Virus record (IMG/VR): IMGVR_UViG_2576861478_000002
Origin: a virus
Taxonomy: Duplodnaviria > Heunggongvirae > Uroviricota > Caudoviricetes
Reading direction: 5' to 3' (one strand)
DNA: 64,000 bases
Both the position numbers and the translations under genes were made by a program. Of the stretch, positions 1-52,650 are shown piece by piece. Numbering within the stretch: the stretch's first letter is position 1; each line of letters starts with the position of its first letter. The notes beneath the pieces are model-generated. The model was given only the letters and a program-made list of their open reading frames with translations, had not been told where the DNA came from and made no database searches.

Positions 1-585
1 CTATAATAGTTCATCTTGTCCAAATAACTGATTTATAGCATTAGTAGAATCTTTTTTTCTTTTTAGTTCATTGAATTCAAAATCAATAACCCTAGATATT
101 CTTTCATAAAATTCGAGATATTCACGGCCGCTTAAAATAACATGTTCATTTGTTTCAGTGTCGGTTATTTGATTTGTACTAGTTGGACTTAAATTTAGGT
201 GATATTCTCCGTTAGTATTAAGAGTCTCCTTATGATAACCCAGACTTTCTAAGAAGCTTTCAAAGAAGTTTAGGTCATCTGAAAGTTTTAGTAGTCCTTT
301 AGCGGTTTTATCGTTAAATAAACTTGGCTCCTTTTCTAAAGCCTCTACACCTCTTTCAGCAATTTTCTGTTCTATTGCTTCATGATTTACAAATAAAAAA
401 GTATCCATAGGAACATTAAGTGCCTTAGCTATATTATTCAGTACTTCAAAGGAAATTTTTCTTTTGCCGTTTTCATATTGGGAAATTGCTTGTTGAGATA
501 CTCCTATCATTTCTCCTAATACAAATGCTGAAATTCCTTTCGCCTTTCGAATTTCTTTAATTACCTTACCTATGTTTTCTTGCAT
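1..585 (-). CDS. XRE-family HTH transcriptional repressor (candidate island master repressor)
   Basis: N-terminal HTH_3 motif (KAKGISAFVLGEMIGVSQQAISQYENGKR). No LexA-like S24 motif and no ImmA partner. Divergent from the + strand operon. Confidence 0.75.
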   Translation of the reverse strand: MQENIGKVIKEIRKAKGISAFVLGEMIGVSQQAISQYENGKRKISFEVLNNIAKALNVPMDTFLFVNHEAIEQKIAERGVEALEKEPSLFNDKTAKGLLKLSDDLNFFESFLESLGYHKETLNTNGEYHLNLSPTSTNQITDTETNEHVILSGREYLEFYERISRVIDFEFNELKRKKDSTNAINQLFGQDELL

Positions 586-639
586 GTTGTTTACCCTCCT
601 TGCTTGTATTATATGGAAAAATAATAAACATTACAACTA

Positions 640-805
640 AATGAAGTAAAAATAAATAAAAACCGTTGACACAACAACTCAATGAGGTATATTATTGTCT
701 TACAACAAGAAAATACAACAAATAGTAGTAAAAATCATCAAAAGTTATGTATATCTATCATATTGAATGTTTTACTTTAAAGAACTTATTAAAAAGGAGG
801 GTGAG
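640..805. promoter_or_regulatory. divergent promoter/operator region of the island (TTGACA at 665..670 with TATATT-like -10; repeated TACAACA motifs)
   Basis: Sigma-A-like hexamers 17 nt apart. Several direct copies of (T)ACAACAA lie between the divergent repressor and the rightward operon. Confidence 0.35.
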
Positions 806-807
806 TA

Positions 808-1077
808 GTGAATTTAAAATTTGAGTTACCAGATGATACGTTGATAACTTCTCGTTCTGATTTGAAAAGTTTATTACGTGAGTTAAAAGAGGAACTGCAG
901 GAAGAAAAAATGCAAGATGATATTTTTACAATTAAGGAAGCAGCTGAATATATGAAAGTAAGTATTCCAACCGTACGATCATTAATAGCTACAAATGAAA
1001 TACCTTATTTTAAAAGGGGACAAGTTATTCGTTTGAATCGTTGGGATATCCTTGACTGGATGCGTAAGGATAAATAG
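808..1077 (+). CDS. excisionase/AlpA-like HTH DNA-binding protein
   Basis: The C-terminal IFTIKEAAEYMKVSIPTVRSLIATNEIPYFKRGQVIRLNRWDILDWM matches the excisionase-family HTH pattern. A GGAGGG RBS precedes the GTG start. Confidence 0.7.
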   Translation: MNLKFELPDDTLITSRSDLKSLLRELKEELQEEKMQDDIFTIKEAAEYMKVSIPTVRSLIATNEIPYFKRGQVIRLNRWDILDWMRKDK

Positions 1078-1218
1078 GAAACTATGAAAATATAAAAAGC
1101 TACTAATATTTTGTTGGTCAGATGGTCTATTGCGGACCGAACATAAATGCAATGTTGGAAATGATAGCTGAAAAAAAGACGGTTGCAACGTCAAATTAAA
1201 AAAATGAGGTGAATACAT

Positions 1219-1365
1219 ATGAACGGAGTATTGTCTGCAACGAGGTTAATGAAGGCGCATGAAATTGTAAAACGATGTGCTGTAGCAAGAAAAAATCCTG
1301 AGATTTTAGAAGCTATGGAGTTTGAAGCTAAGAAAAGATTATACGAAATTAACAATAGTAAATAA
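1219..1365 (+). CDS. small hypothetical protein (48 aa)
   Basis: ATG preceded by a GAGGTGAA RBS; below the ORF-track length cutoff. Confidence 0.3.
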   Translation: MNGVLSATRLMKAHEIVKRCAVARKNPEILEAMEFEAKKRLYEINNSK

Positions 1366-1379
1366 GGAGCGTTAGAAAT

Positions 1380-1706
1380 ATGGATCAATTAGTAGCAGTC
1401 AATGAACAACCAAATTTAAAAAATTTCACAAGTGAACTTGATGGTGAATTAGGATCGCTGGGAGTAAGCGTTGCGACTTTAACAGATGTAGAAGTTCTTT
1501 TAGCGCACTTAGTAGAGGATATGGATACAGCGGTATACAAAGGTGAGGAAATTTATTGTTTTCGTGGGTTTCATAGAAAGCTAAGAGTGTATTGGCGCCT
1601 GCTCAATCATACGATGAATGAATTAAATAAAGAATATGAAAGAGTAGATGAAATTAAAGATGGATTATTTAAAGAGGTAGTAAAGAATGGTGAAAAAAGA
1701 CAATAA
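1380..1706 (+). CDS. hypothetical protein
   Basis: Same-strand ORF within the operon, with an AAGGAG RBS. Confidence 0.45.
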   Translation: MDQLVAVNEQPNLKNFTSELDGELGSLGVSVATLTDVEVLLAHLVEDMDTAVYKGEEIYCFRGFHRKLRVYWRLLNHTMNELNKEYERVDEIKDGLFKEVVKNGEKRQ

Positions 1707-1807
1707 AAAAAGATATATGAACTGCGAATTCATATATCCTCAAGAACAATTATTTATCTACTTATATTTTAACATTGAGTTCGTCTTGTGACAAGGGAGG
1801 TGAGAAG

Positions 1808-4237
1808 TTGTTATCTACAGCAGCGAATTATACAGAAGCAATTAACAACATAATGCCTGGAGCGAAAATTATTAAGCTTACTGGATATGCAAAGGGCAAT
1901 CAAGAGTATCAAAAAGCAAAAACACCAGTAGGTTCTTGGAAAGTCACGCATTCATTAGATAACGATCAAATTAATGGATGGCTTGGTCAAGGTGGCTGGA
2001 TAGGGTGTGTTGTTCCAAAAGGTATTTTCATTGTCGACATTGACGATTCTAAAGAAGGTCAGTTACTAAGAGAATTACTTGAAGGAGAAAACATTCATCA
2101 CCATTTAATTAAAACTCCTAATGGCTGGCAGTTTATATTCAAAGGCGAAACGGATTTAACGAAAAAAGAAGGTCAGTATCAGAATTACGTTAATCGTTTA
2201 GGGTTAACACAAGATACACGAGCAGTGGAAAAGGGTTATATCGTATTCCCGACCGAAAATACAGAAGGGCGTCATGTTGTAACTCAAAGTCTAGAAAAAT
2301 TGGACGAGCTTCCACAGTTCTTATATAAAGCATGGAATGGTGCGAAAACACCTTCACCTATGAGTTATCCATATGAAACTAACGGTTCACGTGATGGGGA
2401 TTTTTATGATTTAGCCAGAAGGTTATTAATTTGTAAGGTGAGCAAAAAGGAAGTATTGTCCAGTCTTAAATTGGCTCACAAATACTTTGTTTCCTTCAAA
2501 AAAGGGTTTCTTATTAAGGATATTACAAAGGTTGTTAATTCGGCCTATAAGAAGGTCAATGAAGGAAAAGCGGATGAGGGAATAACAAACGATAATGAGA
2601 AAAAACAAGAGGATTCTATCATTCCTGTAAATATTCCATCTCCTTACAAAGTTAAAAATAATGCTTTATATAGAGTGGAAACTAAGGTCAAGAATGGAGA
2701 ACTTGATGAACGGGAAATCATGGTTGCTAGGCATGTTCCGATTCTAAAAAGAGAACTACATAACGTTGAACGTCAACAATTATATTATGAGTTAACCTGG
2801 AATGATAGAGGGAAGGTCGTCACCGAGATTGTTCCAGCTGGAGCATTGGTCACTAAGAGGGAGATGATGCCATTAGCAGATAAAGGGTTTCCTTCAAATG
2901 ATAATAACATAAAGCAGTTAATAGATTACTTTGATAAGGTTTTAGCGTTTACCGAGATTGATAGAGGGCTGATGGTAGACCGTTTAGGTTATGTGAAAAG
3001 TGGTTTGGCCCATCCATTACTAGCAACAGATTATGAAATACTGCCTAATGATCAAGGAGAGCAGCAACTTTTTGAATCATTCCAAGTAGCTGGGACAGTC
3101 CAAGGGTGGATAGATGAAGTATTTAATCGTATTAAAGCCCATCCGAGAGCATTATTTTTTGTATTAGCATCCTTTGCTAGTGTACTGCTTCATGATTTAA
3201 AAATAGATCCTTTCATTGTGGATCTTTCTAGCGGAACTTCAAAAGGAAAAACAAGCGTATTAAAAGTTGCAGCCAGCGTGTGGGGGACAAGTGAACTTGT
3301 AAATGAATTTAACGCAACCAAAGTTAGTATTGAACGTAAAGCATCCTTCTTAAACAGTTTTCCTTTGTTAATGGATGATAGCCGTAAAGCGGATGAAAGA
3401 TTACTTCAATCCATTGTTTATAACTTCAGTGGAGGGAAGTCTAAAGGTAGGGGTTCTCTTAGTGGTTCGCAAAGAGAAAATACATGGAAAAATATCATGT
3501 TAACTACTGGAGAAGTAAGTCTAAATGAATATGCATCTAAAGCTGGGGGAGCTGCTGCTCGAATTGTGAGTTTAAATGATAGCCCATTTGAAGGAGTAGA
3601 TTATATATTCTTCGCTGATTTATATAAGGGGCTAGAAACAAATTATGGAGTAATTGGTTTAGAGTTTTTAAAACAGTACCAAGTACGTAAGAAGGAGTTG
3701 CTCCCATCTTTTTATAAATTTAAAGATTTTTATATGAATAAAGCACAGGGAAATGAGGTTTTAACAAGATTATCCCTTTATTATGCAACAGTCCATTATG
3801 CAGGTAGACTCCTAAAAGAATTTTTCAAGGTTAGTGTAGATCTTGAGCAACTGGACAAGCTTTTTGACGAAATTGCCCAAGAAAATAAAGCAATAGATAA
3901 ACCAAAAGAACTATTGAATGAAATTTTAACTTACTTGGATAGTAATAGGGATGGTATTTATTATGACTATGCTCCCAAAAATATCAAAGCAATTTATAAG
4001 TTTAGTTCAATTTGTTTAACACCATCTTTTTTAAAAGAGTTCTTAGGACCAGAAGAAAAAAGGACTAGAAAAGAGTGGTTGAAAAGGGGATTTACTGTTC
4101 CTAATGTTTTAGATGGGAAAGCAGTTGATTATCAAAAAATTAGCCATAAAGGGCGAAAAATCAATGCTGTAACTATAAATAAAGAGATTGTCCAACAATT
4201 AGGTTTTGATTTTGAAGAAAATCCACCTAATAACTAA
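1808..4237 (+). CDS. bifunctional primase-polymerase (prim-pol) N-domain + DUF927/D5-like NTPase replication protein
   Basis: Prim-pol catalytic block (GWIGCVVPKGIFIVDIDD). C-terminal P-loop-like SSGTSKGKTS plus a Walker-B-like LLMDDS. Start is probably the TTG at 1808 after GGGAGGTG (the ORF track gives 1775). Confidence 0.75.
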   Translation: MLSTAANYTEAINNIMPGAKIIKLTGYAKGNQEYQKAKTPVGSWKVTHSLDNDQINGWLGQGGWIGCVVPKGIFIVDIDDSKEGQLLRELLEGENIHHHLIKTPNGWQFIFKGETDLTKKEGQYQNYVNRLGLTQDTRAVEKGYIVFPTENTEGRHVVTQSLEKLDELPQFLYKAWNGAKTPSPMSYPYETNGSRDGDFYDLARRLLICKVSKKEVLSSLKLAHKYFVSFKKGFLIKDITKVVNSAYKKVNEGKADEGITNDNEKKQEDSIIPVNIPSPYKVKNNALYRVETKVKNGELDEREIMVARHVPILKRELHNVERQQLYYELTWNDRGKVVTEIVPAGALVTKREMMPLADKGFPSNDNNIKQLIDYFDKVLAFTEIDRGLMVDRLGYVKSGLAHPLLATDYEILPNDQGEQQLFESFQVAGTVQGWIDEVFNRIKAHPRALFFVLASFASVLLHDLKIDPFIVDLSSGTSKGKTSVLKVAASVWGTSELVNEFNATKVSIERKASFLNSFPLLMDDSRKADERLLQSIVYNFSGGKSKGRGSLSGSQRENTWKNIMLTTGEVSLNEYASKAGGAAARIVSLNDSPFEGVDYIFFADLYKGLETNYGVIGLEFLKQYQVRKKELLPSFYKFKDFYMNKAQGNEVLTRLSLYYATVHYAGRLLKEFFKVSVDLEQLDKLFDEIAQENKAIDKPKELLNEILTYLDSNRDGIYYDYAPKNIKAIYKFSSICLTPSFLKEFLGPEEKRTRKEWLKRGFTVPNVLDGKAVDYQKISHKGRKINAVTINKEIVQQLGFDFEENPPNN

Positions 4238-4560
4238 GGGGTACCAAGAGTACTAAGAAAATAAAGTTCATTTTATAGATTTGGTACTCCTAAAAACATT
4301 GATATAGCAAGTATTCAATACGAATAGTACTAAAAGTACCAAGAGTACTAAGAAAATAAATATATATTTTATAGAAAAAACTATTCATAACTTTTTTCTA
4401 TAAAACCCATATATATGTACTTTGAAAAAACGTGGTACTTTTGGAACTTTAAGAACTGAAGTGGAGAATATGTTGATATGACAATGTTTTTGCGGAAGTA
4501 CTAAATAAGAAATGCGCTGGAACTGTCTAGAACTCTTGGTACTAATCAAATGAATAAGGA
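4238..4560. repeat. iteron cluster; candidate replication origin of the island
   Basis: A 24 bp unit TACCAAGAGTACTAAGAAAATAAA repeated directly at ~4240 and ~4338. An inverted copy GAACTCTTGGTAC at 4538..4551. Further GTAC-core half sites. Located immediately 3' of the primase gene. Confidence 0.45.
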
Positions 4561-4796
4561 TGGTAGAAATGGCAATTAAAAAAATTCCAACCGTACTAGC
4601 AATTGAACGTGATAAAAAAGGAAATCTTAGTACATGGTGTCAATACTGTGGAAAGTTTCATCATCATGGAATAGGTGAAGGACATAGAGATGCACATTGT
4701 TTTGAGGAAGATAGTCCTTATATTCGTACAGGCTATATCCTTAAAAAGATGAAATTATCGGGTAAAGAGGTTGTGAGGATGGGGGAAACCTCATGA
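4560..4796 (+). CDS. small Cys/His-rich hypothetical protein
   Basis: CxxC ... HHH ... H ... C pattern; RBS present. Confidence 0.4.
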   Translation: MVEMAIKKIPTVLAIERDKKGNLSTWCQYCGKFHHHGIGEGHRDAHCFEEDSPYIRTGYILKKMKLSGKEVVRMGETS

Positions 4797-4945
4797 ATGA
4801 AATATTAGAACGATTGAAGGAACAATTAGAAATTCATCGTGATGATGAAAAGGTAATGGTAGATCGTTTAGACCTTATGAAGCTTATACAAGAATACGAA
4901 ATAGAGACAGGTAGAAAGAAAATATGGCTAGATGAGAGGTGGTGA
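4793..4945 (+). CDS. small hypothetical protein (50 aa)
   Basis: ATG overlaps the previous stop (ATGA); GGGGGA RBS. Confidence 0.3.
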   Translation: MNEILERLKEQLEIHRDDEKVMVDRLDLMKLIQEYEIETGRKKIWLDERW

Positions 4946-4949
4946 GTAA

Positions 4950-6146
4950 ATGGCGAGTTTTTTCAATAAAATTTTTAACCGTAAAAAAGAACTGCAGAAG
5001 ACAGAAAGAGCAGATGTTATGAGCGGTGGACCAGCAATATTTACACCTTTTAGCGGTAACGCTTATGAAAGTGATATTTATAGGGCGGCTGTGGATAGCA
5101 TAGCTAGAAATGCTGCAAAGCTAAAAGGAACGCATGTAATGACATCATCAGACCGTCGGAAAAAGGGTGATTATAATTTAAATCGGATTTTACAAGTAAG
5201 ACCGAACCCTTATATGACGGCATATGATCTTATTTATAAGTTGGTTACTCATTACTATCTTTACAATAATGCTTTTGCTTACTTAGAAAAGGACGACAAA
5301 GGTAATTTAGTTGCTATATATCCATTGTCACCTCAAAGTGTGGAATACCTCACCGATCTAACAGGTGAAATGTATTGTCGTTTCTTATTTGCGAATGGTC
5401 AACAAGTCACATTGCATTTTTCAGAGGTATTTATAGTAAGACGTTTCTTTAATTCTAATGATCTATTAGGTGATACCAATACAGCTATTTTGCCAGCGTT
5501 AGATTTGGCACATACGCAAAATGAAGGGTTGAGCAATGCAATAAAATCCAATGCAACTATTAGAGGTATCTTGAAATACAATCAAGTTTTATCACCTGAG
5601 AAGCTAAAAGAAGAAAAAGAAGCTTTCACCAATGATTACTTATCCATTGGCAACAATGGTGGAATCGCAGCAATAGACAATAAATATGACTATATCCCAC
5701 TAGAAACAAAGCCGACAACTATTGATGATAAGCAGCTTGAAGCGGTGAAAAAGAAAATCTATGAGTATTTGGGTATTAGTGAATCCATTGTGAATAGCAC
5801 TTATTCAGAGGAAGACTGGGCGGCGTTTTATGAAAGTGTATTAGAGCCTTTAGCAATTCAATTCTCTTTAGAATTGACGGACAAGCTTTTCACAGAGCGT
5901 GAGCAGTCCTTTGGGAATTCTATTATTTTTGAAGCGAATAGGTTGCAGTTTGCTAGTAATGAAACAAAAACAAACATCATTAAGGAATTAATGCCGTTAG
6001 GCTTATTCACAATAAATCAAGCATTAGAAATTTTAAACCTACCACCAGTTGAGGACGGTGACAAGCGACTACAAACATTAAATGTAGTTAATGCAGCAAA
6101 AGCCGATCAATATCAACTTAAAGAACAAGGGGGTAATAACCAATGA
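4950..6146 (+). CDS. phage portal protein (HK97 family)
   Basis: Homologous to the prophage-2 portal (29422..30645). Sits in the portal position before the protease and capsid genes. Confidence 0.85.
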   Translation: MASFFNKIFNRKKELQKTERADVMSGGPAIFTPFSGNAYESDIYRAAVDSIARNAAKLKGTHVMTSSDRRKKGDYNLNRILQVRPNPYMTAYDLIYKLVTHYYLYNNAFAYLEKDDKGNLVAIYPLSPQSVEYLTDLTGEMYCRFLFANGQQVTLHFSEVFIVRRFFNSNDLLGDTNTAILPALDLAHTQNEGLSNAIKSNATIRGILKYNQVLSPEKLKEEKEAFTNDYLSIGNNGGIAAIDNKYDYIPLETKPTTIDDKQLEAVKKKIYEYLGISESIVNSTYSEEDWAAFYESVLEPLAIQFSLELTDKLFTEREQSFGNSIIFEANRLQFASNETKTNIIKELMPLGLFTINQALEILNLPPVEDGDKRLQTLNVVNAAKADQYQLKEQGGNNQ

Positions 6147-6721
6147 AAGAATTGAGAGTAGCAGAACTAAGAGCAGCCGAGCCGGCAGGTGACAGCAGCC
6201 TTATTCTAAATGGTAGACCGATTGTGTACGATCAGCCTACCACCATAAAAGCACCATTTGGGGAATATATCGAGATTATTAAAAGGGGCGCATTAGATAA
6301 AGCTGATTTATCGGATATTCGCTTACTGTATAACCATGATATGAGTAAAATCCCTTTAGCAAGAACACCTAAAACAATGTCCTTTGCGTTAGATTCGGCA
6401 GGATTAACAATGAGGGCGGAATTACCAGAAACCGAAGAGGGAAAAAGCGTTTATACGGCAGTAAGGCGCCAAGACCTATCGGGAATGTCCTTTGCTTTTA
6501 AAGTACCAGAAGGCGGCAGCCAATTTGATGCAAAGACGAACACAAGAACAATAACCAAAATTGAAAAAGTCTATGAGTTTAGTATTTGTCCATTTCCTGC
6601 ATATCCTCAAACGAGTGTGGAGGCAAGGGCAGCTATTGAAAGTTCATGGGAAATGTTGAAATCAACAGAAAGACAAGCATTAAAAATAAAAATTAATCAA
6701 TTATTAATGAGGAGAGTGTAA
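6143..6721 (+). CDS. HK97-family prohead protease
   Basis: Paralog of 30602..31186; overlaps the portal stop (ATGA coupling). Confidence 0.85.
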   Translation: MKELRVAELRAAEPAGDSSLILNGRPIVYDQPTTIKAPFGEYIEIIKRGALDKADLSDIRLLYNHDMSKIPLARTPKTMSFALDSAGLTMRAELPETEEGKSVYTAVRRQDLSGMSFAFKVPEGGSQFDAKTNTRTITKIEKVYEFSICPFPAYPQTSVEARAAIESSWEMLKSTERQALKIKINQLLMRRV

Positions 6722-6725
6722 GAAT

Positions 6726-7988
6726 ATGAAATTCACTACAGTAGCAGAGGCATTTAATTTTTATCGTAATCATTCTTTAGCAGAAATGGAAACAAGAGCA
6801 GCACAAATTAAGGGTACAGTTGATACTGATCCAAATGCAGATATTACATCTATCAATATTGAAATCGAAGGGTTGCAACAAGCAATGAATAACAGTAAAG
6901 AAAAAGAAAAACAAGCACAACAAAGTCAAACTCAAACACCACCAGCAAACGAAGGAACGGCACAACGTAGCCAATTCAATCCGATTACTGGAATGAACTT
7001 TAACCAGGGGCAACAAGTACCAACAGAAAATATTTTTGGCAGCGCAGAATACCGCAGTGCATTCTATAAAACAATGCTAGGGCAAAAGCTTACAGATATT
7101 GAAACAAGAACATTTAACCGAGCGATGGAAATTCAAGAAGCGGAACACCGAGCGGATGCATTTAACACAACAACGAATAGTGCAGCTGTATTGCCTACAA
7201 CTACGTTAAATGAGGTTATCAAGAAAGCACGTACAATGGGCGGATTAATCTCACATTGCCGTAACTTTAATATCCCAACTAATATTAGTGTACCAATCGG
7301 AACACCTTCTAGTAAGGCACAATGGCATGTAGAAGGGGCGCCAGTAGAAAGTGAAAATGTTTCAACAGCAACTGTATCATTTAAAGGCTATGAGATCATT
7401 AAAGTATTTTCTATCAGTGCTGCAGCTAAGAAAATGTCTATCCAAGCATTTGAAGCATATATGACTGATGAACTTACTAATTGTGTAATGGAAGCTATTG
7501 CAGATGCTTTAGTGAATGGTACTGGAAGTGGTCAAGGTACAGGGCTGGTAACAGGTGTTACATGGAATGATACAAATAGCTTTGAAAATACAGGGAAGTA
7601 TACAGACTTTACAAAAGCATTGGCTATGCTTAAGCGAGGATATGCAGCAGGGGCAAAATGGGCTATGAGTAACGCTACACTATACAACGAAGTATATAGC
7701 CTTGTGGATGCAAACGGACGACCTATCTTTATTGCGGATCCAAAGAATGAAAGCATTGGATACATTCTAGGTAAAGAAGTAGTTATTGATGACAATATCG
7801 AGGACGACACTATTATTCTAGGAAACTTCCAGTACATGGGTTACAACATGCCGCAAGGTGTAATGATTGAAACATCAAGAGAATCAAGCTTTAAGAGTGG
7901 ATTAGTTGATTACCGAGCAATGGCAATTGCAGATACGAAACCACTTGTACCAGAAGCATTTATTAAACTATCTAAAAAGCAAGCATAA
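6726..7988 (+). CDS. major capsid protein (HK97 fold) with N-terminal delta/scaffold domain
   Basis: Coiled-coil N-terminus followed by a region homologous to the 31203..32387 capsid. Strong terminator downstream. Confidence 0.85.
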   Translation: MKFTTVAEAFNFYRNHSLAEMETRAAQIKGTVDTDPNADITSINIEIEGLQQAMNNSKEKEKQAQQSQTQTPPANEGTAQRSQFNPITGMNFNQGQQVPTENIFGSAEYRSAFYKTMLGQKLTDIETRTFNRAMEIQEAEHRADAFNTTTNSAAVLPTTTLNEVIKKARTMGGLISHCRNFNIPTNISVPIGTPSSKAQWHVEGAPVESENVSTATVSFKGYEIIKVFSISAAAKKMSIQAFEAYMTDELTNCVMEAIADALVNGTGSGQGTGLVTGVTWNDTNSFENTGKYTDFTKALAMLKRGYAAGAKWAMSNATLYNEVYSLVDANGRPIFIADPKNESIGYILGKEVVIDDNIEDDTIILGNFQYMGYNMPQGVMIETSRESSFKSGLVDYRAMAIADTKPLVPEAFIKLSKKQA

Positions 7989-8005
7989 GCAAACTAAGTA
8001 TGAAG

Positions 8006-8040
8006 GGGTATCAGTATAGCGCTGGTATCCCTTTTATTTA
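8006..8040 (+). terminator. rho-independent terminator after capsid gene
   Basis: GGGGTATCAG..CTGGTATCCC stem followed by TTTTATTT. Confidence 0.5.
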
Positions 8041-8054
8041 AAGGAGTGAGTAAA

Positions 8055-8342
8055 TTGTTAATTAGTATCGAGGAAGCAAGGGACACAGTAAGAGTAGATG
8101 GTGAAGACAATGACGTAATCATCATTCCGTTATTAGAATCTATTCCGTCTTATCTCGAGATAACAACAGGAAGAACATGGACAGATGATACATCAGTACA
8201 TCCATTAGCACAAACAGTAACAAAGTTTCTCTTACAGTTGTGGTATGACCCACAAGATCAGGATAGTGAACGATTAAAGCGAACAATCGACAATCTATTA
8301 GCGGCATTGACTGTATTAGGTAGGAATATGAAAAATGGCTAA
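8055..8342 (+). CDS. gp6-like head-tail connector protein
   Basis: Size, position and pattern match the gp6/DNA-packaging connector family. Paralog of 32657..32929. TTG start after AAAGGAGTGAG. Confidence 0.65.
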   Translation: MLISIEEARDTVRVDGEDNDVIIIPLLESIPSYLEITTGRTWTDDTSVHPLAQTVTKFLLQLWYDPQDQDSERLKRTIDNLLAALTVLGRNMKNG

Positions 8343-8625
8343 GGATTATGCAAAATCTTTTTATAACAGTGCAACATGGCGTAAATGTAAAGATGGATTC
8401 ATGCAAAGTAAGCACTATTTATGTGAAAGATGCGGTGATATAGCCGTTATATGCCATCATAAACGCTATATTACACCACAAAATATTAATAATCCCAATA
8501 TAACGTTGAGTTGGGACAATTTAGAGGCATTATGCCAAACGTGCCATAACCAAGAACATCATAGCAGCGAGATATGCGCAAATGGATTAGCATTCGATAG
8601 CAAAGGGAATTTGATTCAAAAATAA
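8335..8625 (+). CDS. HNH endonuclease (terminase-associated)
   Basis: CxxC ... HH ... N ... CxxCH motif set. Paralogs at 26556..26858 and 61165..61500. Positioned immediately before cos/terS. Confidence 0.85.
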   Translation: MAKDYAKSFYNSATWRKCKDGFMQSKHYLCERCGDIAVICHHKRYITPQNINNPNITLSWDNLEALCQTCHNQEHHSSEICANGLAFDSKGNLIQK

Positions 8626-8630
8626 AACAT

Positions 8631-8690
8631 ACCCCCCATTAATTTAAGAAAAAGGCATGGCTCGAGGACCGAGGAGGAGCCTTTCTTTTC
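8631..8690. other. candidate cos region (C-run + GC-rich GGACCGAGGAGGAGCC motif)
   Basis: GC-rich island in AT-rich DNA between HNH and terS. A similar motif is found upstream of terS in both prophages (27236..27290, 61517..61575). Confidence 0.35.
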
Positions 8691-8751
8691 CTCTCCATGA
8701 CTTTCTATATAAAGGGAGGGATGGAAAAAAACAAAAAATGAAGGTGATTAT

Positions 8752-9099
8752 ATGAGGACTTCTAAGAAAGTTACAGCGATTTCTAGTGATATGAAAAAAC
8801 TTAAAACGATATTAAGGCAGATTCCTAAAGAGCGTTTACCGATAGCGCAGAGTTTATATAACGAGCTTGTATTTATGCAAACTACTTTAGAGGCTTTAAA
8901 AACTCAAGTAAATGAAGAAGGACCGACAGCAATGTTTAAACAAGGTAGGCAAGAATTTTTAAGGGAACATCCAGCGTTAAAAGCCTATAACACAACTGTA
9001 CAGCGTTACAGTCTTTTGTATAAGCAATTAGTTGATTTATTACCGCCAACAGATTTAAAACCAAAAGAAGATGAACTAATTGACTTTATTAAGAGGTGA
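8752..9099 (+). CDS. terminase small subunit (P27 family)
   Basis: Resembles 27349..27711 and 61651..61986. Size and position immediately upstream of terL. Confidence 0.75.
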   Translation: MRTSKKVTAISSDMKKLKTILRQIPKERLPIAQSLYNELVFMQTTLEALKTQVNEEGPTAMFKQGRQEFLREHPALKAYNTTVQRYSLLYKQLVDLLPPTDLKPKEDELIDFIKR

Positions 9100-9103
9100 T
9101 AAC

Positions 9104-19223: not shown

Positions 19224-19316
19224 GAGAAGAACCCGCTGCAACGGGTCCTAAAGAAAAAATAATAATACGTATTATAACAATTAATTGATGTTTTGGAAAT
19301 AGGAGAGGTAGGAAAT

Positions 19317-20270
19317 ATGGGTATTTTTCGAGTGAAAAAGGATACAAATTATTCGGTTATACACAATACGCCTTTGCGCGATGAAAATTTAAGTTGGAGG
19401 GCAAAGGGGTTATTGGCTTACATGCTTTCTTTACCGGATGATTGGACATTTCATGCTACTGAATTAAGTCAACATGCCAAGGATAGCGAGAAAACAACAA
19501 CAAGTACCCTAAAAGAGTTGAAAAAGGCAGGGTATTTGAAGAGATATCCAATCCAAAATTCAGAAACAGGGAAAATTTCACATTGGGAAACCATTGTTTA
19601 TGAGTTACCAACCATAGATACCAAAAACCATAGGGTGGATAAACCACCTAATGGTGAAACCACTGAGTGGAAAAGCCACCCTATGGATGAACCACATGAT
19701 GGTGAAACCACCGAGTGGACGAACCACCCTATGGAAAAATGCCGACTACTAAATACTAATTCTTTACTAAGTACTAATAATATACAAAATACTAATTATT
19801 ATCATGATGATAATAAAGAATCGAAATCACATGTATTAGTCGATGAAGAATTTAAAGTCAGTTATAACTTTTTAAAAGGTGAAGGAATTCCATTAAGTGA
19901 AATTGCCATTACGGAATTAGGAGAGTTTTGTGATTCGTTTGGTAGCGAATTAATTAAACATGCTGCTCACAAAGCTATTGATGAAAATAAGCCAAAATGG
20001 AATTACATTAAGGCCATTTTGAAAAGCTGGGAAAAGCAAAAAGTAAAAACATTAGATGATGTTGCTGCATTAGATAGACGCTTTGAAATGAGTAAGAACA
20101 AACGATTGAATGGTTCGGGACCAGGTCGTTCAAATAGAAAAGAAATTGTTCCAGATTGGTTACGTGAAGATGTTGAGCCAACTAAAAAAGAAATTGAAAA
20201 GCAAAACTCGCAATCTATTGATGAAGAGCGTGAGAGATTGCAAGAAGTGCTAAACAAATATAAATCATAG
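19317..20270 (+). CDS. phage replisome organizer (Phage_rep_org_N + DnaD-like C-domain)
   Basis: N-terminus MGIFRVKKDTNYSVIHNTPLRDENLSWRAKGLLAYMLSLPDDW. C-terminus KPKWNYIKAILKSWEKQKV. Start after GGAGAGGTAGG. Confidence 0.8.
   Translation: MGIFRVKKDTNYSVIHNTPLRDENLSWRAKGLLAYMLSLPDDWTFHATELSQHAKDSEKTTTSTLKELKKAGYLKRYPIQNSETGKISHWETIVYELPTIDTKNHRVDKPPNGETTEWKSHPMDEPHDGETTEWTNHPMEKCRLLNTNSLLSTNNIQNTNYYHDDNKESKSHVLVDEEFKVSYNFLKGEGIPLSEIAITELGEFCDSFGSELIKHAAHKAIDENKPKWNYIKAILKSWEKQKVKTLDDVAALDRRFEMSKNKRLNGSGPGRSNRKEIVPDWLREDVEPTKKEIEKQNSQSIDEERERLQEVLNKYKS
19629..19743. repeat. internal iterons: 2 x ~46 bp direct repeats plus an inverted half-site (candidate phage ori)
   Basis: GGTGAAACCAC(T/C)GAGTGGA..ACCACCCTATGGA twice (19650..19695, 19698..19743). 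CCATAGGGTGG at 19629 is the reverse complement of CCACCCTATGG. Confidence 0.45.
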
Positions 20271-46506: not shown

Positions 46507-48362
46507 GTGTGCCAGGCATGGCAACTATCTAGGTGGTGGAAGTCCACTGTGGGGGTACACATCGACCAACCACTAAGGAAGCGCAAGGTACTTACCGTGA
46601 GGTTAGGGCTGGAGGAAGCGTGGAATAAAATCTTGGCTCGACGAACAGAAACCTGATATGAAGGCTTTATAAAGGGATGAGGCTCCATAACAAGTTAAAG
46701 TCCAAAAGATGTGCGTAACTTTGTAGAGTAAATCAGGCGAGTAAAAGAGGAAAGATAGTTGCCTTACCCTGGGAGATCTTGCGGATGTACTAACAGTACA
46801 GTCGAAAATGGTTAACCGCAAGAAGTCAGCCGAAGCCATAGTAGTGGAACAAATTCATGAAGGGCCGAACAGTTTATAGTGTTTCAACGCCATGAATGCG
46901 TAAGTGACATACTCCGAATATGTTAATGATGAAAGTATGAGCGTATCTCAAAGGATAATCAAAATGGAGTTGTCACTTACTACGTGAAGGGAAAGGAGAA
47001 ACGAGTGTGGAACTCTTAGAAGCAATTTTAAGCAACAAAAATATGAATGAAGCCTACTTACGCGTTTATAAAAACAAAGGTGTTAGTGGAGTTGATGGTG
47101 TAACAGTCGAAGAACTAAAGCAATATCTGAAAGAGCACAAGGACGAGCTACGTCAGCGCATTAGAACAAGGAAATACCAACCACAAGCTGCCTTAAGAGT
47201 GGAAATCCCAAAAGAGAATGGCAAGATGCGCAAGCTGGGAATACCAACAGTAGTGGATAGAGTCGTTCAACAAGCCATTCATCAAATACTCAGCCCGATA
47301 TTTGAGAAGCAGTTCAGTGAATTCAGTTATGGTTTTAGACCAAAAAGAAGTTGTGAGATGGCAATTGTTAAAAGCTTGGAATTTCTAAACAACGGATATG
47401 ATTGGATAGTAGATATTGATTTGGAGAGATTCTTTGACACAGTTCATCACGATAAATTGATGCGAATTATATCTAACTCAATACATGACGGAGACGTCAT
47501 CTCTCTCATAAGAAAGTATCTAGTCAGTGGAGTTATGGTGAATGGGAAATATGAAGAAACACCAGTCGGAACTCCGCAAGGAGGCAATCTCAGCCCTTTA
47601 CTGAGTAACATTATGTTGAACGAACTGGATAAGGAACTCGAGGGTAGAGGACTTCAATTTGTGAGATACGCTGATGACGCTCTTATCTTTGTGAGGAGTG
47701 AGAAGGCAGCGGGCAGAGTGATGAAATCAATCGTGAGATTCATAGAAAAGAAACTAGGCTTGATAGTCAATACAGAAAAGAGTAAAATCTCTCGGCCAAA
47801 AGATTTAAAATTTTTAGGGTTTGGATATTATTACACCCTCAAGGATAAGAGATATCAAACGAAACCACATCCAATCTCGGTACAAAAATTTCAAAGAAAA
47901 TTGCACCAACTGACAAAACGAAGCTGGAGTGTACCGTTAGACTATCGAATATTGAAACTTAAACAAGTGATATTTGGATGGGTCAATTACTTCAGGAGTA
48001 CAAATATGAAAGGTGTTCTGGAGCGAGTAGACCAGAAGCTCCGCTCCAGAATTAGGGTGATTATCTGGAAGCAATGGAAAGTACCGAAGAAACAAATCAA
48101 ATCGCTTGTTCAACTAGGGATTCCGGAGGAAGAAGCGAAGGGATTAACCTACTGTCGAAAGGGCTTCCGATATATAGGGTTATCGAAAGTTGTTCAAAGA
48201 GCCATCTCAAATCAAAGACTAAAGAAGAGGGGAGTCCCTTCTTCTTTAGAACGCTATCTAAAAGTTCACACTGTAATATAAACTGAACCGCCGTATACGG
48301 AACCGTATGTACGGTGGTGTGAGAGGGGCGAGAATAATTACTTTATTTTCCCTCTACTCGAT
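46507..48362 (+). mobile_element. group II intron, bacterial class C (IIC) type
   Basis: 5' GUGUG directly after a terminator. ~500 nt GC-rich domain I-III region. RT/maturase ORF in domain IV. Domain V-like ACCGCCGUAUACGGAACCGUAUGUACGGUGGU at 48286..48317. Domain VI with a bulged A ~48356. 3' end is +/-5 nt. Confidence 0.8.
47007..48281 (+). CDS. group II intron reverse transcriptase/maturase (no En domain)
   Basis: RT blocks 0-7 incl. YADD (FVRYADDALIF). X/maturase region present. Ends at domain V. Confidence 0.9.
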   Translation: MELLEAILSNKNMNEAYLRVYKNKGVSGVDGVTVEELKQYLKEHKDELRQRIRTRKYQPQAALRVEIPKENGKMRKLGIPTVVDRVVQQAIHQILSPIFEKQFSEFSYGFRPKRSCEMAIVKSLEFLNNGYDWIVDIDLERFFDTVHHDKLMRIISNSIHDGDVISLIRKYLVSGVMVNGKYEETPVGTPQGGNLSPLLSNIMLNELDKELEGRGLQFVRYADDALIFVRSEKAAGRVMKSIVRFIEKKLGLIVNTEKSKISRPKDLKFLGFGYYYTLKDKRYQTKPHPISVQKFQRKLHQLTKRSWSVPLDYRILKLKQVIFGWVNYFRSTNMKGVLERVDQKLRSRIRVIIWKQWKVPKKQIKSLVQLGIPEEEAKGLTYCRKGFRYIGLSKVVQRAISNQRLKKRGVPSSLERYLKVHTVI

Positions 48363-48627: not shown

Positions 48628-49560
48628 ATGGAAATCAGAAAAAAATTAGTTGATTCAAGTAAATATGGTACAAAGTGTCCTTATACAATGAATCCGGAAT
48701 TTATTACAGTCCACAATACTTACAACGATGCTACAGCAGAAAACGAAGTAGCTTATATGATTCGTAATGATAACCAAGTTTCATTTCATGTTGCGGTAGA
48801 TGATAAAGAAGCTGTACAAGGTCTGCCTTTAGAGCGTAATGCATGGGCTTGTGGTGATGGAAACGGTTCAGGTAATCGAGAGTCTATTAGTGTAGAAATC
48901 TGTTATTCTTTAAGTGGTGGAGAGAGATATTATAAAGCGGAAGACAATGCAACTATCGTTGTAGCTCAACTAATGAAACAGTACAATATTCCAATTCATA
49001 AAGTCCGTACACATCAATCATGGAGTGGGAAGTACTGTCCTCACCGTATGTTGGCAGAAGGACGTTGGACTAACTTTATTGAAAGAGTCCAAAATGCATG
49101 CAATGGAGATGGTAAAGTAACTCCTACGCTTATTCCACCGTCAAATAATGGGACAGGTATTGCGTATATTGAGGGGAATGGCATTAACCTTCGTAAAGGT
49201 CCAGGTACTGGATATGGCGTTATTCGTCAATTAGGTAAAGGTGAGGCCTACGAAGTATGGGGCCAATCAAATGGATGGTTAAACCTTGGTGGCGATCAGT
49301 GGATTTATAATGATTCATCATACATTCGTTATACAGGAGGAAAAGTACCAGCATCTTCTAAACCTTTAAATGATGGCGTTGGTGTAGTGACTATTACAAC
49401 TGATGTATTACGTGTTCGTAAAGGTCCAGGAACTAACTATGGCATCGTGAAAAAAGTGTATCAAGGTGAAAAATATCAAACGTGGGGATATAGAGACGGT
49501 TGGTATAATGTTGGAGGCGACCAATGGGTTTCTGGTGAATATGTGAAGTTTGAAAAATAA
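48628..49560 (+). CDS. endolysin: N-acetylmuramoyl-L-alanine amidase (PGRP/amidase_2) + two SH3b-like wall-binding repeats
   Basis: Amidase_2 motifs in the N-terminal ~160 aa. Duplicated GNGINLRKGPGTGYGV..WxxxNGWxNxGGDQW modules. Confidence 0.9.
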   Translation: MEIRKKLVDSSKYGTKCPYTMNPEFITVHNTYNDATAENEVAYMIRNDNQVSFHVAVDDKEAVQGLPLERNAWACGDGNGSGNRESISVEICYSLSGGERYYKAEDNATIVVAQLMKQYNIPIHKVRTHQSWSGKYCPHRMLAEGRWTNFIERVQNACNGDGKVTPTLIPPSNNGTGIAYIEGNGINLRKGPGTGYGVIRQLGKGEAYEVWGQSNGWLNLGGDQWIYNDSSYIRYTGGKVPASSKPLNDGVGVVTITTDVLRVRKGPGTNYGIVKKVYQGEKYQTWGYRDGWYNVGGDQWVSGEYVKFEK

Positions 49561-51933: not shown

Positions 51934-52650
51934 ATGTCAAACGTAGTAACTGAAATTGGTGGGTTAAATTTCAAAGGTAATGTGGTAGATCATGAATGGT
52001 TTAATTACATCACTTTTAGTAATGGTAAGCCTCACATTGTAGCGATTATGGTATTGAGTGAAATTGTTTATTGGTATCGTCCTACAGTTATTCGAGATGA
52101 AATAGATGGGAAAGTAACTTACAAGAAAAAATTTAAAGCGGACAAGTTGCAAAAAAATTATCAACAGTTAGCCGATACTTTTGGATTTACAAAATTACAA
52201 GTGAAAAGAGCATGTGATTTATTAACTGATATGCTACTTGTCAAAATCGAGTTTAGGACTATTAGCGCTGATGGGAAAATTTTGAATAACGTAATGTTTG
52301 TGGAACCTGTACCAACAGAAATAAGGAAAATTTCTAGTATGTATCAAGAGATAAAAGAAGACCCTGGTTACTTAGAAGTAAATAGGGTGGTTACTTCTAA
52401 ATCAAGACCCTCTTCACTTACAAGTAAGGAGTCTCCTAACTTCAAAGTAAAGACAAATACAGAGATTACTACAAAGAGTACTACAGAGAATGTAAGTAGT
52501 AGTAGCATCTTCTCTTTCTACGAAAATAATTTCGGTATTTTAAATTCATTCATAGCCGAAAGTCTTTCGCAATGGGTAAATGAGACAAGCGAAGAACTTG
52601 TACTAGCAGCAATGGAACGTGCTTTGAACCCGCAGAAGAAATGGAATTAG
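51934..52650 (+). CDS. DnaD-domain replication initiation protein
   Basis: C-terminal DnaD-like region LSQWVNETSEELVLAAMERALN; AGGAGG RBS. Confidence 0.7.
   Translation: MSNVVTEIGGLNFKGNVVDHEWFNYITFSNGKPHIVAIMVLSEIVYWYRPTVIRDEIDGKVTYKKKFKADKLQKNYQQLADTFGFTKLQVKRACDLLTDMLLVKIEFRTISADGKILNNVMFVEPVPTEIRKISSMYQEIKEDPGYLEVNRVVTSKSRPSSLTSKESPNFKVKTNTEITTKSTTENVSSSSIFSFYENNFGILNSFIAESLSQWVNETSEELVLAAMERALNPQKKWN

What the first reader, a model, noticed from the sequence alone, without database searches (positions are those of the whole stretch)
4238..4560. Iteron cluster immediately 3' of the prim-pol gene: candidate island replication origin
A 24 bp unit repeats twice directly, an inverted copy (GAACTCTTGGTAC) lies 200 bp on, and GTACT/AGTAC half sites are scattered in an AT-rich 320 bp gap. 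This is the arrangement seen for SaPI-type ori sites placed after pri-rep. The ORF track explains none of it.
Basis: seen in the sequence. Interest (0 to 1): 0.5.

Follow-up and report, generated by a model that had tools for sequence, protein, structure and literature searches.

The report
SaPI-type replication origin of a Bacillus satellite
The repeat-filled gap after the primase-helicase gene is very probably the replication origin of a ~12 kb phage-satellite island of the Bacillus cereus group, built like the known origins of Staphylococcus pathogenicity islands; it is a new example of a known kind.

Summary
The gap 4238-4559 holds an exact 25-nt direct repeat (4241, 4336), an inverted copy (4528-4543) and 10 GTAC sites, against 0.9 expected per 323 bp. 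The repeats resolve into about 14 nine-bp units (core GTACYA). Seven lie left of a 76-bp AT-rich centre and point mostly rightward; seven lie right and point mostly leftward. The whole gap is an imperfect dyad, and its centre is the least stable duplex in the 64 kb window.

The upstream gene is a fused primase-Rep. Residues 276-816 are a full-length homolog of the SaPIbov1 Rep initiator-helicase (PDB 8tch, E 1.5e-89), including a winged-helix C-terminal domain.

In 24 of 25 homologous loci from more than 10 Bacillales genera, and in S. aureus PT1028, the same layout follows the stop codon, but the core hexamer differs between lineages. Natural domain and cassette swaps show that iteron type follows the Rep C-terminus, not the primase domain or the neighbouring genes.

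The element is a cf-PICI-type satellite, a kind already reported in Bacillus, so this is a new member of a known kind. Binding and replication remain untested.

The parts
1808..4237 (+). Fused primase-Rep gene (809 aa from the ATG at 1808; the open frame starts at TTG 1775). It has an N-terminal AEP Prim-Pol domain with PriCT, followed by a DUF927 initiator-helicase.
   Evidence: Pfam hits: Prim-Pol 1.2e-07, DUF927 1.4e-41, PriCT_1 weak. PHROG 8841 'DNA primase/helicase' 1e-210. P0001 at 98% identity is called from the equivalent ATG.
2600..4222 (+). The part of the gene homologous to the whole SaPIbov1 Rep (residues 276-816 in 820-aa numbering): Rep N-domain, AAA+ helicase core and CTD.
   Evidence: phmmer against 8tch 1.5e-89 covering chain residues 26-573 of 580. 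Profile search 3e-127. Foldseek of the AF2 model gives E 1.4e-37, TMt 0.69, and names 8tch as the SaPIbov1 replication initiator.
3872..4234 (+). C-terminal winged-helix-like domain, the proposed iteron reader. The last ~60 residues discriminate iteron classes best.
   Evidence: The CTD-only AF2 model has pLDDT above 94 over its core. It matches the SaPIbov1 Rep CTD at E 8.5e-10 and the TcpK wHTH-oriT DNA complex 5vfx at TM 0.73-0.75. Within-class minus between-class identity is 0.17 for residues 761-820 against 0.05 for the ATPase core. MI/H peaks in residues 781-800.
4241..4258 (+). Outer left iterons: two tandem 9-bp units, GTACCAAGA and GTACTAAGA, starting 4 nt after the stop codon.
   Evidence: PWM 15.8 and 14.8 bits. 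The same position and orientation is seen in other loci.
4279..4287 (-). Single outward-pointing iteron of the left arm (GTACCAAAT on the minus strand).
   Evidence: 7.9 bits. A reversed unit at this position is conserved across loci and in PT1028.
4292..4312 (.). Left 'box' (AAAAACATTGATATAGCAAGT), which pairs with 4471-4491. Its role is unknown.
   Evidence: Inverted repeat I3, 19 nt, 84% complementary. It is positionally conserved in related gaps.
4318..4353 (+). Inner left iterons: four tandem 9-bp units, ATACGAATA (degenerate), GTACTAAAA, GTACCAAGA and GTACTAAGA, pointing at the AT-rich centre.
   Evidence: D2; TRF period 9.
4354..4429 (.). AT-rich centre, the proposed melting site (DUE), with an imperfect 31-nt inverted repeat (4350-4380 / 4392-4422). 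The dyad axis lies near 4392.
   Evidence: It is the least stable 60- and 80-bp duplex of the whole 64 kb window: -58.9 kcal/mol against a mean of -75.1, sd 4.1. The DNA hairpin scores z = -4.9. An AT-rich block sits between the opposed iterons in about 20 loci.
4430..4456 (-). Inner right iterons: three tandem 9-bp units on the minus strand, GTACCACGT, GTTCCAAAA and GTTCTTAAA (degenerate), pointing at the centre.
   Evidence: 5.6 and 7.9 bits; the third unit has 2 mismatches. They mirror 4327-4353.
4471..4491 (.). Right 'box' (ATGTTGATATGACAATGTTTT), the partner of 4292-4312.
   Evidence: I3.
4498..4506 (+). Single outward-pointing iteron of the right arm (GTACTAAAT).
   Evidence: 6.9 bits. 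It mirrors 4279-4287, and the position is conserved.
4525..4542 (-). Outer right iterons: GTTCTAGAC (degenerate) and GTACCAAGA on the minus strand.
   Evidence: I4, I6; 15.8 bits.
4569..4796 (+). First gene after the origin: a small Cys/His-rich protein (MAIKK...), preceded by the RBS AAGGATGG. It is not part of the origin and marks its right boundary.
   Evidence: It is 72-92% identical in islands whose iterons differ, so it is not the specificity determinant. It has no Pfam or PHROG family.

Best explanation
The gap 4238-4559 is the replication origin (ori) of a ~12.2 kb capsid-forming phage satellite (cf-PICI type) of the Bacillus cereus group. Its cognate initiator is the fused primase-Rep protein encoded immediately upstream.

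Inferred mechanism, by homology with SaPIbov1 Rep:
1. After induction the Rep protein is made.
2. Its C-terminal winged-helix domains read the 9-bp iterons, which have an invariant (A)GT followed by the lineage-specific ACY.
3. About seven sites in each arm are arranged as a dyad, so two hexamers assemble on either side of the 76-bp AT-rich centre.
4. The centre, the easiest-melting DNA in the region, opens without DnaA.
5. The two helicase rings load on single strands and move apart.
6. The N-terminal AEP primase domain lays the first primers, and host polymerase takes over.

Shown here: the anatomy, the homology, the co-variation and the melting propensity. Inferred: binding, double-hexamer loading, melting and priming.
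For: Anatomy:
- There are 10 strong and 4 degenerate 9-bp units in a dyad layout around an AT-rich centre.
- The whole gap aligns to its own reverse complement at 66% over 319 nt, E 3e-15.
- The centre is the least stable duplex in 64 kb, about 4 sd from the mean. The runner-up lies beside the iteron array of a neighbouring prophage, which acts as an internal positive control.

Initiator:
- Residues 276-816 are a full-length homolog of the SaPIbov1 Rep, PDB 8tch.
- The CTD is a winged-helix fold.

Conservation:
- 24 of 25 homolog loci have one hexamer at 4-12 copies against 0.02-0.6 expected in the 400 bp after the stop codon.
- The layout '>> < >>> AT << > <<' recurs in about 20 loci.
- It also appears downstream of the Rep of S. 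aureus PT1028, which is 96% identical to the SaPIbov1 Rep.

Co-variation through natural swaps:
- Window and L005 have unrelated N-terminal domains (17% identity), C-termini 94-100% identical, and the same iterons.
- P0005 and P0080 have N-termini 83% identical, C-termini 37-57% identical, and different iterons.
- L007 and L011 have flanking genes 87-98% identical but different Rep C-termini and different iterons.
- L003 carries the same iteron family in a phage-like context with unrelated neighbours.

Literature: SaPI/PICI origins are defined by exactly this arrangement and are read by the Rep CTD (PMC9371898, PMC7581432, PMC6092414).
Against: - There is no experimental evidence for binding, melting or replication of this element.
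- The Rep C-terminus and the gap are physically adjacent, so co-inheritance by linkage contributes to the co-variation. The L007/L011 and L003 cases show that the cassette has boundaries on both sides, but they do not prove contact.
- Iteron classes defined by hexamer are coarse. L015, L020 and L027 share the GTAC core with the window, yet their last 60 residues are only 42-49% identical to the window's.
- The central hairpin is not universal: z is about 0 in L006-L009.
- The two 'box' elements are unexplained by the model.
Confidence: 0.86

Rival explanations
1. The repeats are operator sites for a transcription factor that controls the downstream packaging operon (portal-protease-capsid-terminase), not an origin.
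For: The gap sits directly upstream of the first gene of the packaging operon. Short repeats in dyad arrangement are also typical of operators. The CTD fold also weakly resembles MarR/ArsR-type regulators.
Against: Sigma-70-like promoters are not above chance: 1 found against 2.7 expected. The same architecture follows the Rep gene in islands and in a phage-like contig that have no packaging operon downstream (L003, L006, L008, L009, L010). Iteron type does not follow the repressor, xis, upstream or downstream genes. Fourteen sites spanning 300 bp around the least stable DNA of the region is not an operator layout.
Confidence: 0.04
2. The repeats are Rep-binding sites used mainly for copy-number or incompatibility control, or for segregation (handcuffing or centromere-like), while initiation occurs elsewhere.
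For: Iterons in theta plasmids have such dual roles (established knowledge; PMC4980987 reviews iteron replicons). A weak structural match of the CTD to TubR centromere-binding proteins exists (E 0.17, low probability).
Against: No other iteron cluster or comparably unstable AT-rich block exists in the island. The homologous SaPIbov1-type element uses this position as the ori (PMC9371898, PMC6092414). A satellite that replicates only after induction has little need for partition.
Confidence: 0.04
3. The gap is a packaging recognition site (cos or pac) for the island's HNH-TerS-TerL machinery.
For: The island encodes its own HNH (8335-8625), a probable TerS (8752-9099) and TerL (9080-10744), so a cis packaging site must exist somewhere in the island.
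Against: The same architecture is kept in relatives without any terminase genes (L006, L008, L009, L010). It co-varies with Rep rather than with packaging genes. From general knowledge, not tested here, cos sites of HNH-dependent systems usually lie next to terS.
Confidence: 0.02
4. The gap encodes something: the 54-aa antisense ORF (4385-4549, minus strand) or a small RNA. On this view the repeats are incidental.
For: An ORF of 54 aa is open in the window and in L005, and tblastn finds weak similarity in L003 and L006.
Against: Between the window and L005 the DNA is 91% identical but the peptide only 76%, so nearly every substitution changes the peptide and there is no coding constraint. The start codon is TTG, and the ORF frame and length differ in L001. 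Rfam finds nothing at E up to 1. No terminator is found.
Confidence: 0.02

Closest known systems
SaPIbov1 Rep-ori replicon (Staphylococcus aureus pathogenicity island; Rep structure PDB 8tch)
   Same: The Rep homology is full-length (E 1.5e-89) and includes the CTD. The ori lies directly after the stop codon. Short iterons sit in a 9-bp register with an invariant AGT. Two opposed sets flank an AT-rich centre. The near-identical PT1028 element shows the same '>> < >> AT << > <<' layout.
   Different: The iteron core is GTACYA here and GTTCCC in PT1028. Rep identity is only about 30%. Here the primase is fused to Rep, whereas in PT1028 the gene before Rep is separate. The host is Bacillus, and the island makes its own capsids.
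SaPI5 PriRep5 and SaPI1 Rep1 (cryo-EM; PMC9371898)
   Same: Functionally the same: a self-loading initiator-helicase with a CTD winged helix that reads iterons downstream of its gene. SaPI5 also has pri fused to rep.
   Different: They belong to a different helicase family (D5_N / Primase_Cterm type, PMC7581432). They are not detected by sequence and only weakly by fold (7pds and 7ola, E 7e-05 to 4e-04, TM about 0.2-0.3).
SCCmec Cch (DUF927 helicase, PDB 5dgk) and the Cch2 origin
   Same: Cch is a DUF927 helicase core homolog (E 4e-12 by sequence, 2.5e-21 by fold). For Cch2, CTD binding to direct repeats downstream of its gene has been shown (PMC7581432).
   Different: Only three iterons were found for Cch2, and no dyad of about 14 sites. 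SCC replication in vivo has not been shown.
Gram-negative PICI origins (e.g. EcCICFT073; PMC6092414)
   Same: Two iteron sets flank an AT-rich region immediately 3' of rep, and pri-rep-ori has been shown to drive plasmid replication.
   Different: The Rep family is unrelated or distant, and the iterons differ. I did not compare these sequences here.
Viral double-hexamer initiators (SV40 large T antigen, papillomavirus E1)
   Same: A dyad-symmetric origin with multiple short sites flanks an easily melted centre, and the initiator is itself the helicase. These are weak fold matches of the helicase core (4gdf, 2v9p).
   Different: In those proteins the origin-binding domain is N-terminal (PMC7581432), and they are not sequence homologs.
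Iteron plasmids (pPS10, R6K, RK2, F type theta replicons; reviewed in PMC4980987)
   Same: Repeated initiator-binding sites lie beside an AT-rich unwinding element.
   Different: From general knowledge, those iterons are about 17-22 bp direct repeats in one orientation, the origins carry DnaA boxes, and a WH1-WH2 Rep recruits the host DnaB. Here the units are 9 bp in opposed sets, there is no DnaA box, and the initiator is itself a helicase.

Membership tests
SaPI/PICI-type Rep-ori replicon | The ori lies immediately 3' of the replication initiator gene. | tested here: met
   The first iteron starts 4 nt after the TAA at 4235-4237. In 22 of the 23 loci with a mapped iteron core, the first core hit lies within 43 nt of the stop codon.
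SaPI/PICI-type Rep-ori replicon | Six to twelve (or more) short penta- or hexanucleotide iterons. | tested here: met
   There are 11 matches to the GTACYA core on both strands, and 10 PWM units of at least 5 bits plus 4 degenerate units in register, against 0.3-0.6 expected.
SaPI/PICI-type Rep-ori replicon | An AT-rich region near the centre, with iterons on both sides. | tested here: met
   The centre is 4354-4429, with 88% A+T in the richest 60 bp. It is the least stable duplex of the 64 kb window.
SaPI/PICI-type Rep-ori replicon | [quoted passage not shown] | tested here: met
   Three to four '+' units at 4318-4353 face three '-' units at 4430-4456. The outer pairs at 4241-4258 (+) and 4525-4542 (-) do the same. 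The gap is a global dyad.
SaPI/PICI-type Rep-ori replicon | The adjacent gene encodes a Rep initiator-helicase with a C-terminal winged-helix domain. | tested here: met
   It is a full-length homolog of the SaPIbov1 Rep 8tch. The CTD model matches the 8tch CTD and a wHTH-DNA complex.
SaPI/PICI-type Rep-ori replicon | Rep binds its cognate iterons specifically. | not testable with these tools
   Support is indirect only: iteron class co-varies with the Rep C-terminus through natural swaps. An EMSA or footprint is needed.
SaPI/PICI-type Rep-ori replicon | The pri-rep-ori segment drives autonomous replication. | not testable with these tools
   This has been shown for SaPIbov1, SaPI1, EfCIV583 and EcCICFT073 (PMC6092414), but not for this element.
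Capsid-forming PICI (cf-PICI), Firmicutes group 1 | int, a divergent repressor, xis and pri-rep-ori, then portal-protease-capsid first, then connectors and HNH-TerS-TerL. No tail or lysis genes. Size about 10-15 kb. | tested here: met
   The integrase lies just off-window and is seen in L001 and L029/L030. The full element is about 12.2 kb. The gene order matches the Bacillus/Clostridium/Staphylococcus group in bioRxiv 10.1101/2022.09.08.507074.
Capsid-forming PICI (cf-PICI), Firmicutes group 1 | Induction by, and tail-dependence on, a helper phage. | not testable with these tools
   Two prophage-like elements lie in the same window (13.6-49.6 kb and from about 50 kb), but no functional link can be inferred.
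Classical iteron theta plasmids | Direct 17-22 bp iterons in one orientation, DnaA boxes, and a non-helicase WH1-WH2 Rep. | tested here: not met
   The units are 9 bp in opposed sets. There is no DnaA box, even with one mismatch to TTATCCACA. The initiator is an AAA+ helicase.
Lambda-type origin inside the initiator gene | The iteron array is embedded in the coding sequence of the initiator. | tested here: not met
   The array is intergenic. By contrast, the two other elements of the window do have arrays inside DnaB_2-family genes.

The most novel reading that the evidence does not exclude
The comparison suggests a more precise and possibly general origin 'grammar' for the DUF927/SaPIbov1 Rep family than the summaries I could read.
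- Each arm has about seven 9-bp sites: two outer, one outward-facing, a palindromic 'box', and three to four inner.
- Each site has an invariant (A)GT plus a 3-4 nt specificity code.
- That code appears to be read by the last ~60 residues of Rep.
- The Rep C-terminus and ori are exchanged as one cassette between satellites and phages, independently of the type of primase domain.

If the code is simple, it would allow prediction of incompatibility groups among satellites and the design of orthogonal self-loading replicons. The conserved outward-facing site and the box may mark a step in double-hexamer assembly that has not been described.
Probability: 0.3. Interest if true: 0.5.

Novelty: new member of a known kind. 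Interest (0 to 1): 0.3.

Why it matters
It places the origin of a Bacillus cereus-group phage satellite to within about 300 bp and names its initiator, so replication of these poorly studied Bacillus cf-PICIs can be tested directly. The set of about 25 Rep-ori pairs, with seven iteron classes and several natural domain swaps, is a ready-made resource for working out how SaPIbov1-type self-loading helicases recognise their origins. For genome annotation, it explains a 320-bp stretch that gene callers leave blank. It also gives a simple rule for finding such origins: look directly after DUF927 Rep genes for opposed 9-bp AGT-type units around the local stability minimum.

Tried and rejected
- Megablast of the island against the phage collection found no match.
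- The first genome-contig scan with the single protein found no confirmed relative. It was repeated with an alignment.
- Generic dispersed repeat: rejected. The 25-mer occurs only in two IMG/VR copies of the same island. The 17-mer gave 25 metagenome hits; 23 of them are singletons with no Rep homolog and no iteron cluster, so they are chance.
- L039 and L045 have 10-11 GTACYA units but no Rep. There the motif lies inside a 62-aa ORF and encodes STKSTK repeats, which is a coincidence.
- Known RNA family: none found. Terminator: none; promoters are at or below chance.
- Antisense 54-aa ORF: no coding constraint.
- Central hairpin as a universal feature: rejected. It is significant in the window, L003 and L011 but absent in L006-L009.
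- Flanking small proteins (up1, up2, xis, dn1, dn2, repressor) as the iteron readers: rejected by the L007/L011 and window/L009/L010 comparisons.
- N-terminal primase domain as the specificity determinant: rejected.
- DnaA boxes: none.
- The weak motif hits at 52309 and 52469 belong to a different 12-bp array inside a DnaB_2-family gene of another element.
- The original SaPIbov1 ori papers (PMC1964853, PMC3804134) are not held, so the experimental SaPIbov1 iteron map could not be compared directly. PT1028, whose Rep is 96% identical, was used as a proxy.

Full report
**1. The observation**

The gap between the stop codon of the large gene (TAA at 4235-4237) and the next gene (RBS and ATG at 4555-4569) is about 320 bp with GC 0.25-0.29. 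It contains:
- An exact 25-nt direct repeat at 4241-4265 and 4336-4360.
- An inverted copy at 4528-4543, 94% complementary.

The enrichment is far beyond chance:
- The 15-mer with up to 3 mismatches occurs 8 times in 64 kb against 1.27 expected, and 6 of the 8 are in the gap.
- GTAC occurs 10 times in 323 bp against a window mean of 0.9, and the next-best peak is 4.
- Six of the seven exact GTACYAARA sites in the window are here.
- Tandem Repeats Finder independently reports a 9-bp period array at 4326-4353.

The refinement is that the 25-mer consists of two tandem 9-bp units plus an A-rich tail.

**2. Anatomy**

A PWM scan gives 10 units of at least 5 bits, against 0.6 expected. Four more degenerate units lie in the same 9-bp register.
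- Left arm: two '+' units at 4241-4258, one '-' unit at 4279-4287, a 'box' at 4292-4312, and four '+' units at 4318-4353.
- AT-rich centre: 4354-4429.
- Right arm, a mirror image: three '-' units at 4430-4456, a box at 4471-4491, one '+' unit at 4498-4506, and two '-' units at 4525-4542.

The whole gap aligns to its own reverse complement at 66% identity over 319 nt, E 3e-15. The dyad axis lies near 4392, and side peaks at shifts of 9 bp reflect the register.

The centre is the least stable 60- or 80-bp duplex of the whole 64 kb window: -58.9 kcal/mol against a mean of -75.1, sd 4.1. The second least stable segment (19747) lies next to another iteron array (19636-19739), which sits inside a DnaB_2/HTH replication gene of the neighbouring prophage. 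That makes it a useful internal positive control.

The gap has no DnaA box, no Rfam match, no terminator, and no excess of promoter-like sites.

**3. The neighbouring gene**

The gene at 1808-4237 encodes an 809-aa protein with an N-terminal AEP Prim-Pol domain, PriCT and DUF927.
- Residues 276-816 align end to end with PDB 8tch (E 1.5e-89; profile 3e-127). The fold-search library names 8tch as the replication initiator with helicase activity of SaPIbov1.
- The AF2 model has mean pLDDT 82.5. It matches 8tch at E 1.4e-37 with TMt 0.69, and the SCCmec Cch helicase 5dgk next.
- A separate model of the last 145 residues has pLDDT above 94 over its core. It matches the 8tch CTD (E 8.5e-10), then the winged-helix protein TcpK bound to oriT DNA (5vfx, TM 0.73-0.75), and then, weakly, MarR/ArsR/TubR-type winged helices.

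The protein is therefore a pri-rep fusion of the SaPIbov1 Rep family with a winged-helix CTD.

**4. The element**

The genes around the gap are:
- an HTH repressor (1-585, minus strand) and an HTH_17 excisionase-like gene (808-1077);
- pri-rep and the gap;
- portal, protease and capsid;
- a head-tail adaptor, HNH, a probable TerS, TerL, and a head-completion protein.

There are no tail or lysis genes before guaA (12023-13570). The near-identical island in B. cereus BAG6X1-2 has its integrase next to groEL. Two IMG/VR contigs of 12.18 kb are the same element at 92-96% identity. They show that window position 1 corresponds to position 1228 of the island.

This matches the Firmicutes group of capsid-forming PICIs, which have already been reported in Bacillus (bioRxiv 10.1101/2022.09.08.507074).

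**5. Comparative test**

I fetched 25 loci encoding homologs at 98-40% identity from Bacillus, Domibacillus, Niallia, Planococcus, Peribacillus, Sporosarcina, Priestia, Virgibacillus, Metabacillus and other genera.

All ten loci with gene calls have an uncalled gap of 310-470 bp directly after the stop codon. A blind enrichment analysis of the 400 bp after the stop finds one hexamer family at 4-12 copies, against 0.02-0.6 expected, in 24 of 25 loci. The core differs between lineages:

| Core | Loci |
|---|---|
| GTACYA | window, L001, L003, L005, L015, L020, L027 |
| GTAACC | L006 |
| GTAATA | L007, L009, L010 |
| GTAGGA | L008, L018 |
| GTTACA | seven loci |
| GTAACA | L022, L023 |
| TACAAA | L017, L019 |

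The layout '>> < ... >>> [AT-rich] << ... > <<' recurs in about 20 loci. A multiple alignment of eight gaps shows an invariant AGT at the start of each unit, followed by the lineage-specific bases.

The S. aureus record PT1028 shows the same layout with an AGTTCCC core. Its Rep is 96% identical to the SaPIbov1 Rep, and 14 of the 16 differences fall in the last ~65 residues.

**6. Which protein reads the iterons?**

Natural swaps answer this as far as sequence can.
- Window and L005 have unrelated N-terminal domains (17% identity; L005 has an NrS-1-polymerase-like domain) but C-terminal parts 94-100% identical. Their iterons are the same.
- P0005 and P0080 share the N-terminus (79-83%) but differ in the C-terminus (37-57%). 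Their iterons differ.
- Window and P0007 are 72% identical in the N-terminus and 43-61% in the C-terminus. Their iterons differ.
- L007 and L011 are otherwise the same island (flanking genes 87-98% identical) but carry different Rep C-termini and different iterons. Rep-CTD plus ori therefore behaves as an exchangeable cassette bounded on both sides.
- The small Cys/His protein after the gap is 87-88% identical between the window and L009/L010, although their iterons differ.
- L003 has the window's iteron family in a phage-like context with unrelated neighbours.

Over all loci, the last 60 residues separate iteron classes best: within-class minus between-class identity is 0.17, against 0.05 for the ATPase core. 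Mutual information normalised by entropy peaks at residues 781-800.

The caveat is that the C-terminus and the gap are adjacent, so linkage contributes to this pattern. However, the concerted change of 10 or more sites per lineage itself argues for selection by a common binder.

**7. Comparison with what is known**

PMC9371898 summarises SaPI origins as follows:
- six to twelve penta- or hexanucleotide iterons lie immediately downstream of rep;
- the centre is AT-rich, with half the iterons on each side;
- at least two iterons per side point in opposite directions;
- the Rep CTD winged helix recognises them;
- melting is ATP-independent;
- two hexamers probably load, one on each side;
- in SaPI5, pri and rep are fused.

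PMC7581432 states that DUF927-containing Cch is related to the SaPIbov1 Rep, and that Rep uses its CTD to recognise the downstream origin. PMC6092414 states that the region immediately 3' of rep is the origin in PICIs, always with two iteron sets flanking an AT-rich region, and that pri-rep-ori segments drive plasmid replication.

All the sequence-level criteria are met here. The functional ones, binding and replication, cannot be tested with these tools. Classical iteron plasmids and lambda-type in-gene origins were considered, and their defining features are not met.

**8. Rivals**

An operator for the packaging operon, copy-control or partition sites, a cos/pac site, and a small ORF or sRNA were each considered. 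Each is contradicted by the distribution of the architecture, by what it co-varies with, and by the lack of coding or RNA signals. Together they receive about 0.12.

**9. Verdict**

The finding is a new member of a known kind: a SaPIbov1-type Rep-ori replicon in a Bacillus cf-PICI. A specialist would not be surprised.

The modest added value is the conserved two-arm grammar, the AGT-plus-specificity-triplet structure of the iterons, the cassette exchange between satellites and phages, and the set of natural swaps pointing to the last ~60 residues of Rep as the specificity determinant. Two things remain unexplained: the two 'box' elements, and the single outward-facing unit in each arm.

Noticed in passing
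window 4569-4796 (+): A small Cys/His-rich protein (CxxC...HHH...H...C, about 75 aa) directly follows the origin in 8 of the 10 gene-called loci. It stays 72-92% identical among the Bacillus-group islands (41-52% to the Domibacillus copy, L006), even where Rep and the iterons differ. It has no Pfam or PHROG family, and its function is unknown.
   Followed up: partly
window 4292-4312 and 4471-4491: A palindromic 'box' (TTGATAT..CAA) occurs once per origin arm, at a conserved position between the outward-facing iteron and the inner iterons. It is partly shared between lineages whose iteron cores differ (window, L003, L006). It is not explained by the iteron model.
   Followed up: partly
window 19636-19799: The prophage at about 13.6-49.6 kb has its own iteron-like arrays (16/32/48-bp periods, AAACCACC-type) inside a DnaB_2/HTH_36 replication gene (19293-20270). 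They are followed by an 18-bp array and by the second least stable duplex of the window. This is probably a lambda-style in-gene origin.
   Followed up: partly
window 52458-52489: A 12-bp tandem array (TACAGAGAGTAC, 2.7 copies) lies inside a DnaB_2-family gene (51934-52650) of a third phage-like region (about 50-64 kb, with an ORF6C protein, a 180-aa integrase-family protein at 59144-59686 and TerL at 61983-63641). It explains the weak motif hits at 52309 and 52469.
   Followed up: partly
window 47007-48281 (+): A group II intron reverse transcriptase/maturase (RVT_1 plus GIIM) lies within the late region of the prophage, just upstream of the amidase endolysin (48628-49560).
   Followed up: no
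window 1-13570; L001: The satellite sits between groEL (seen in L001) and guaA (12023-13570), and a second integrase (13636-14733, minus strand) starts a prophage right after guaA. From my own knowledge, not checked here, groEL and guaA 3' ends are also SaPI attachment regions in S. aureus.
   Followed up: no
L005 3249-5780; L011 5001-7556; proteins P0078-P0113: Within this Rep family the N-terminal priming domain is exchanged between an AEP Prim-Pol type and an NrS-1-polymerase-like type (PF22763), while the Rep/CTD/ori part stays the same. The recombination joint lies near residue 290.
   Followed up: partly
L012 7434-7900: The Metabacillus homolog (41% identity) is the only locus without enriched repeats. 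Its gap starts like an L017-type origin (ATTACAAAAAGGTTA...) for about 25 nt and then becomes unrelated sequence. This suggests an origin deletion in a decaying island.
   Followed up: partly
L039 1623-1811; L045: Metagenome contigs carry the same 17-mer twice and 10-11 GTACYA motifs, but inside a 62-aa basic ORF where the motif encodes STKSTK repeats. They have no Rep homolog. This is a coincidental match, worth remembering when searching for iterons by pattern.
   Followed up: yes
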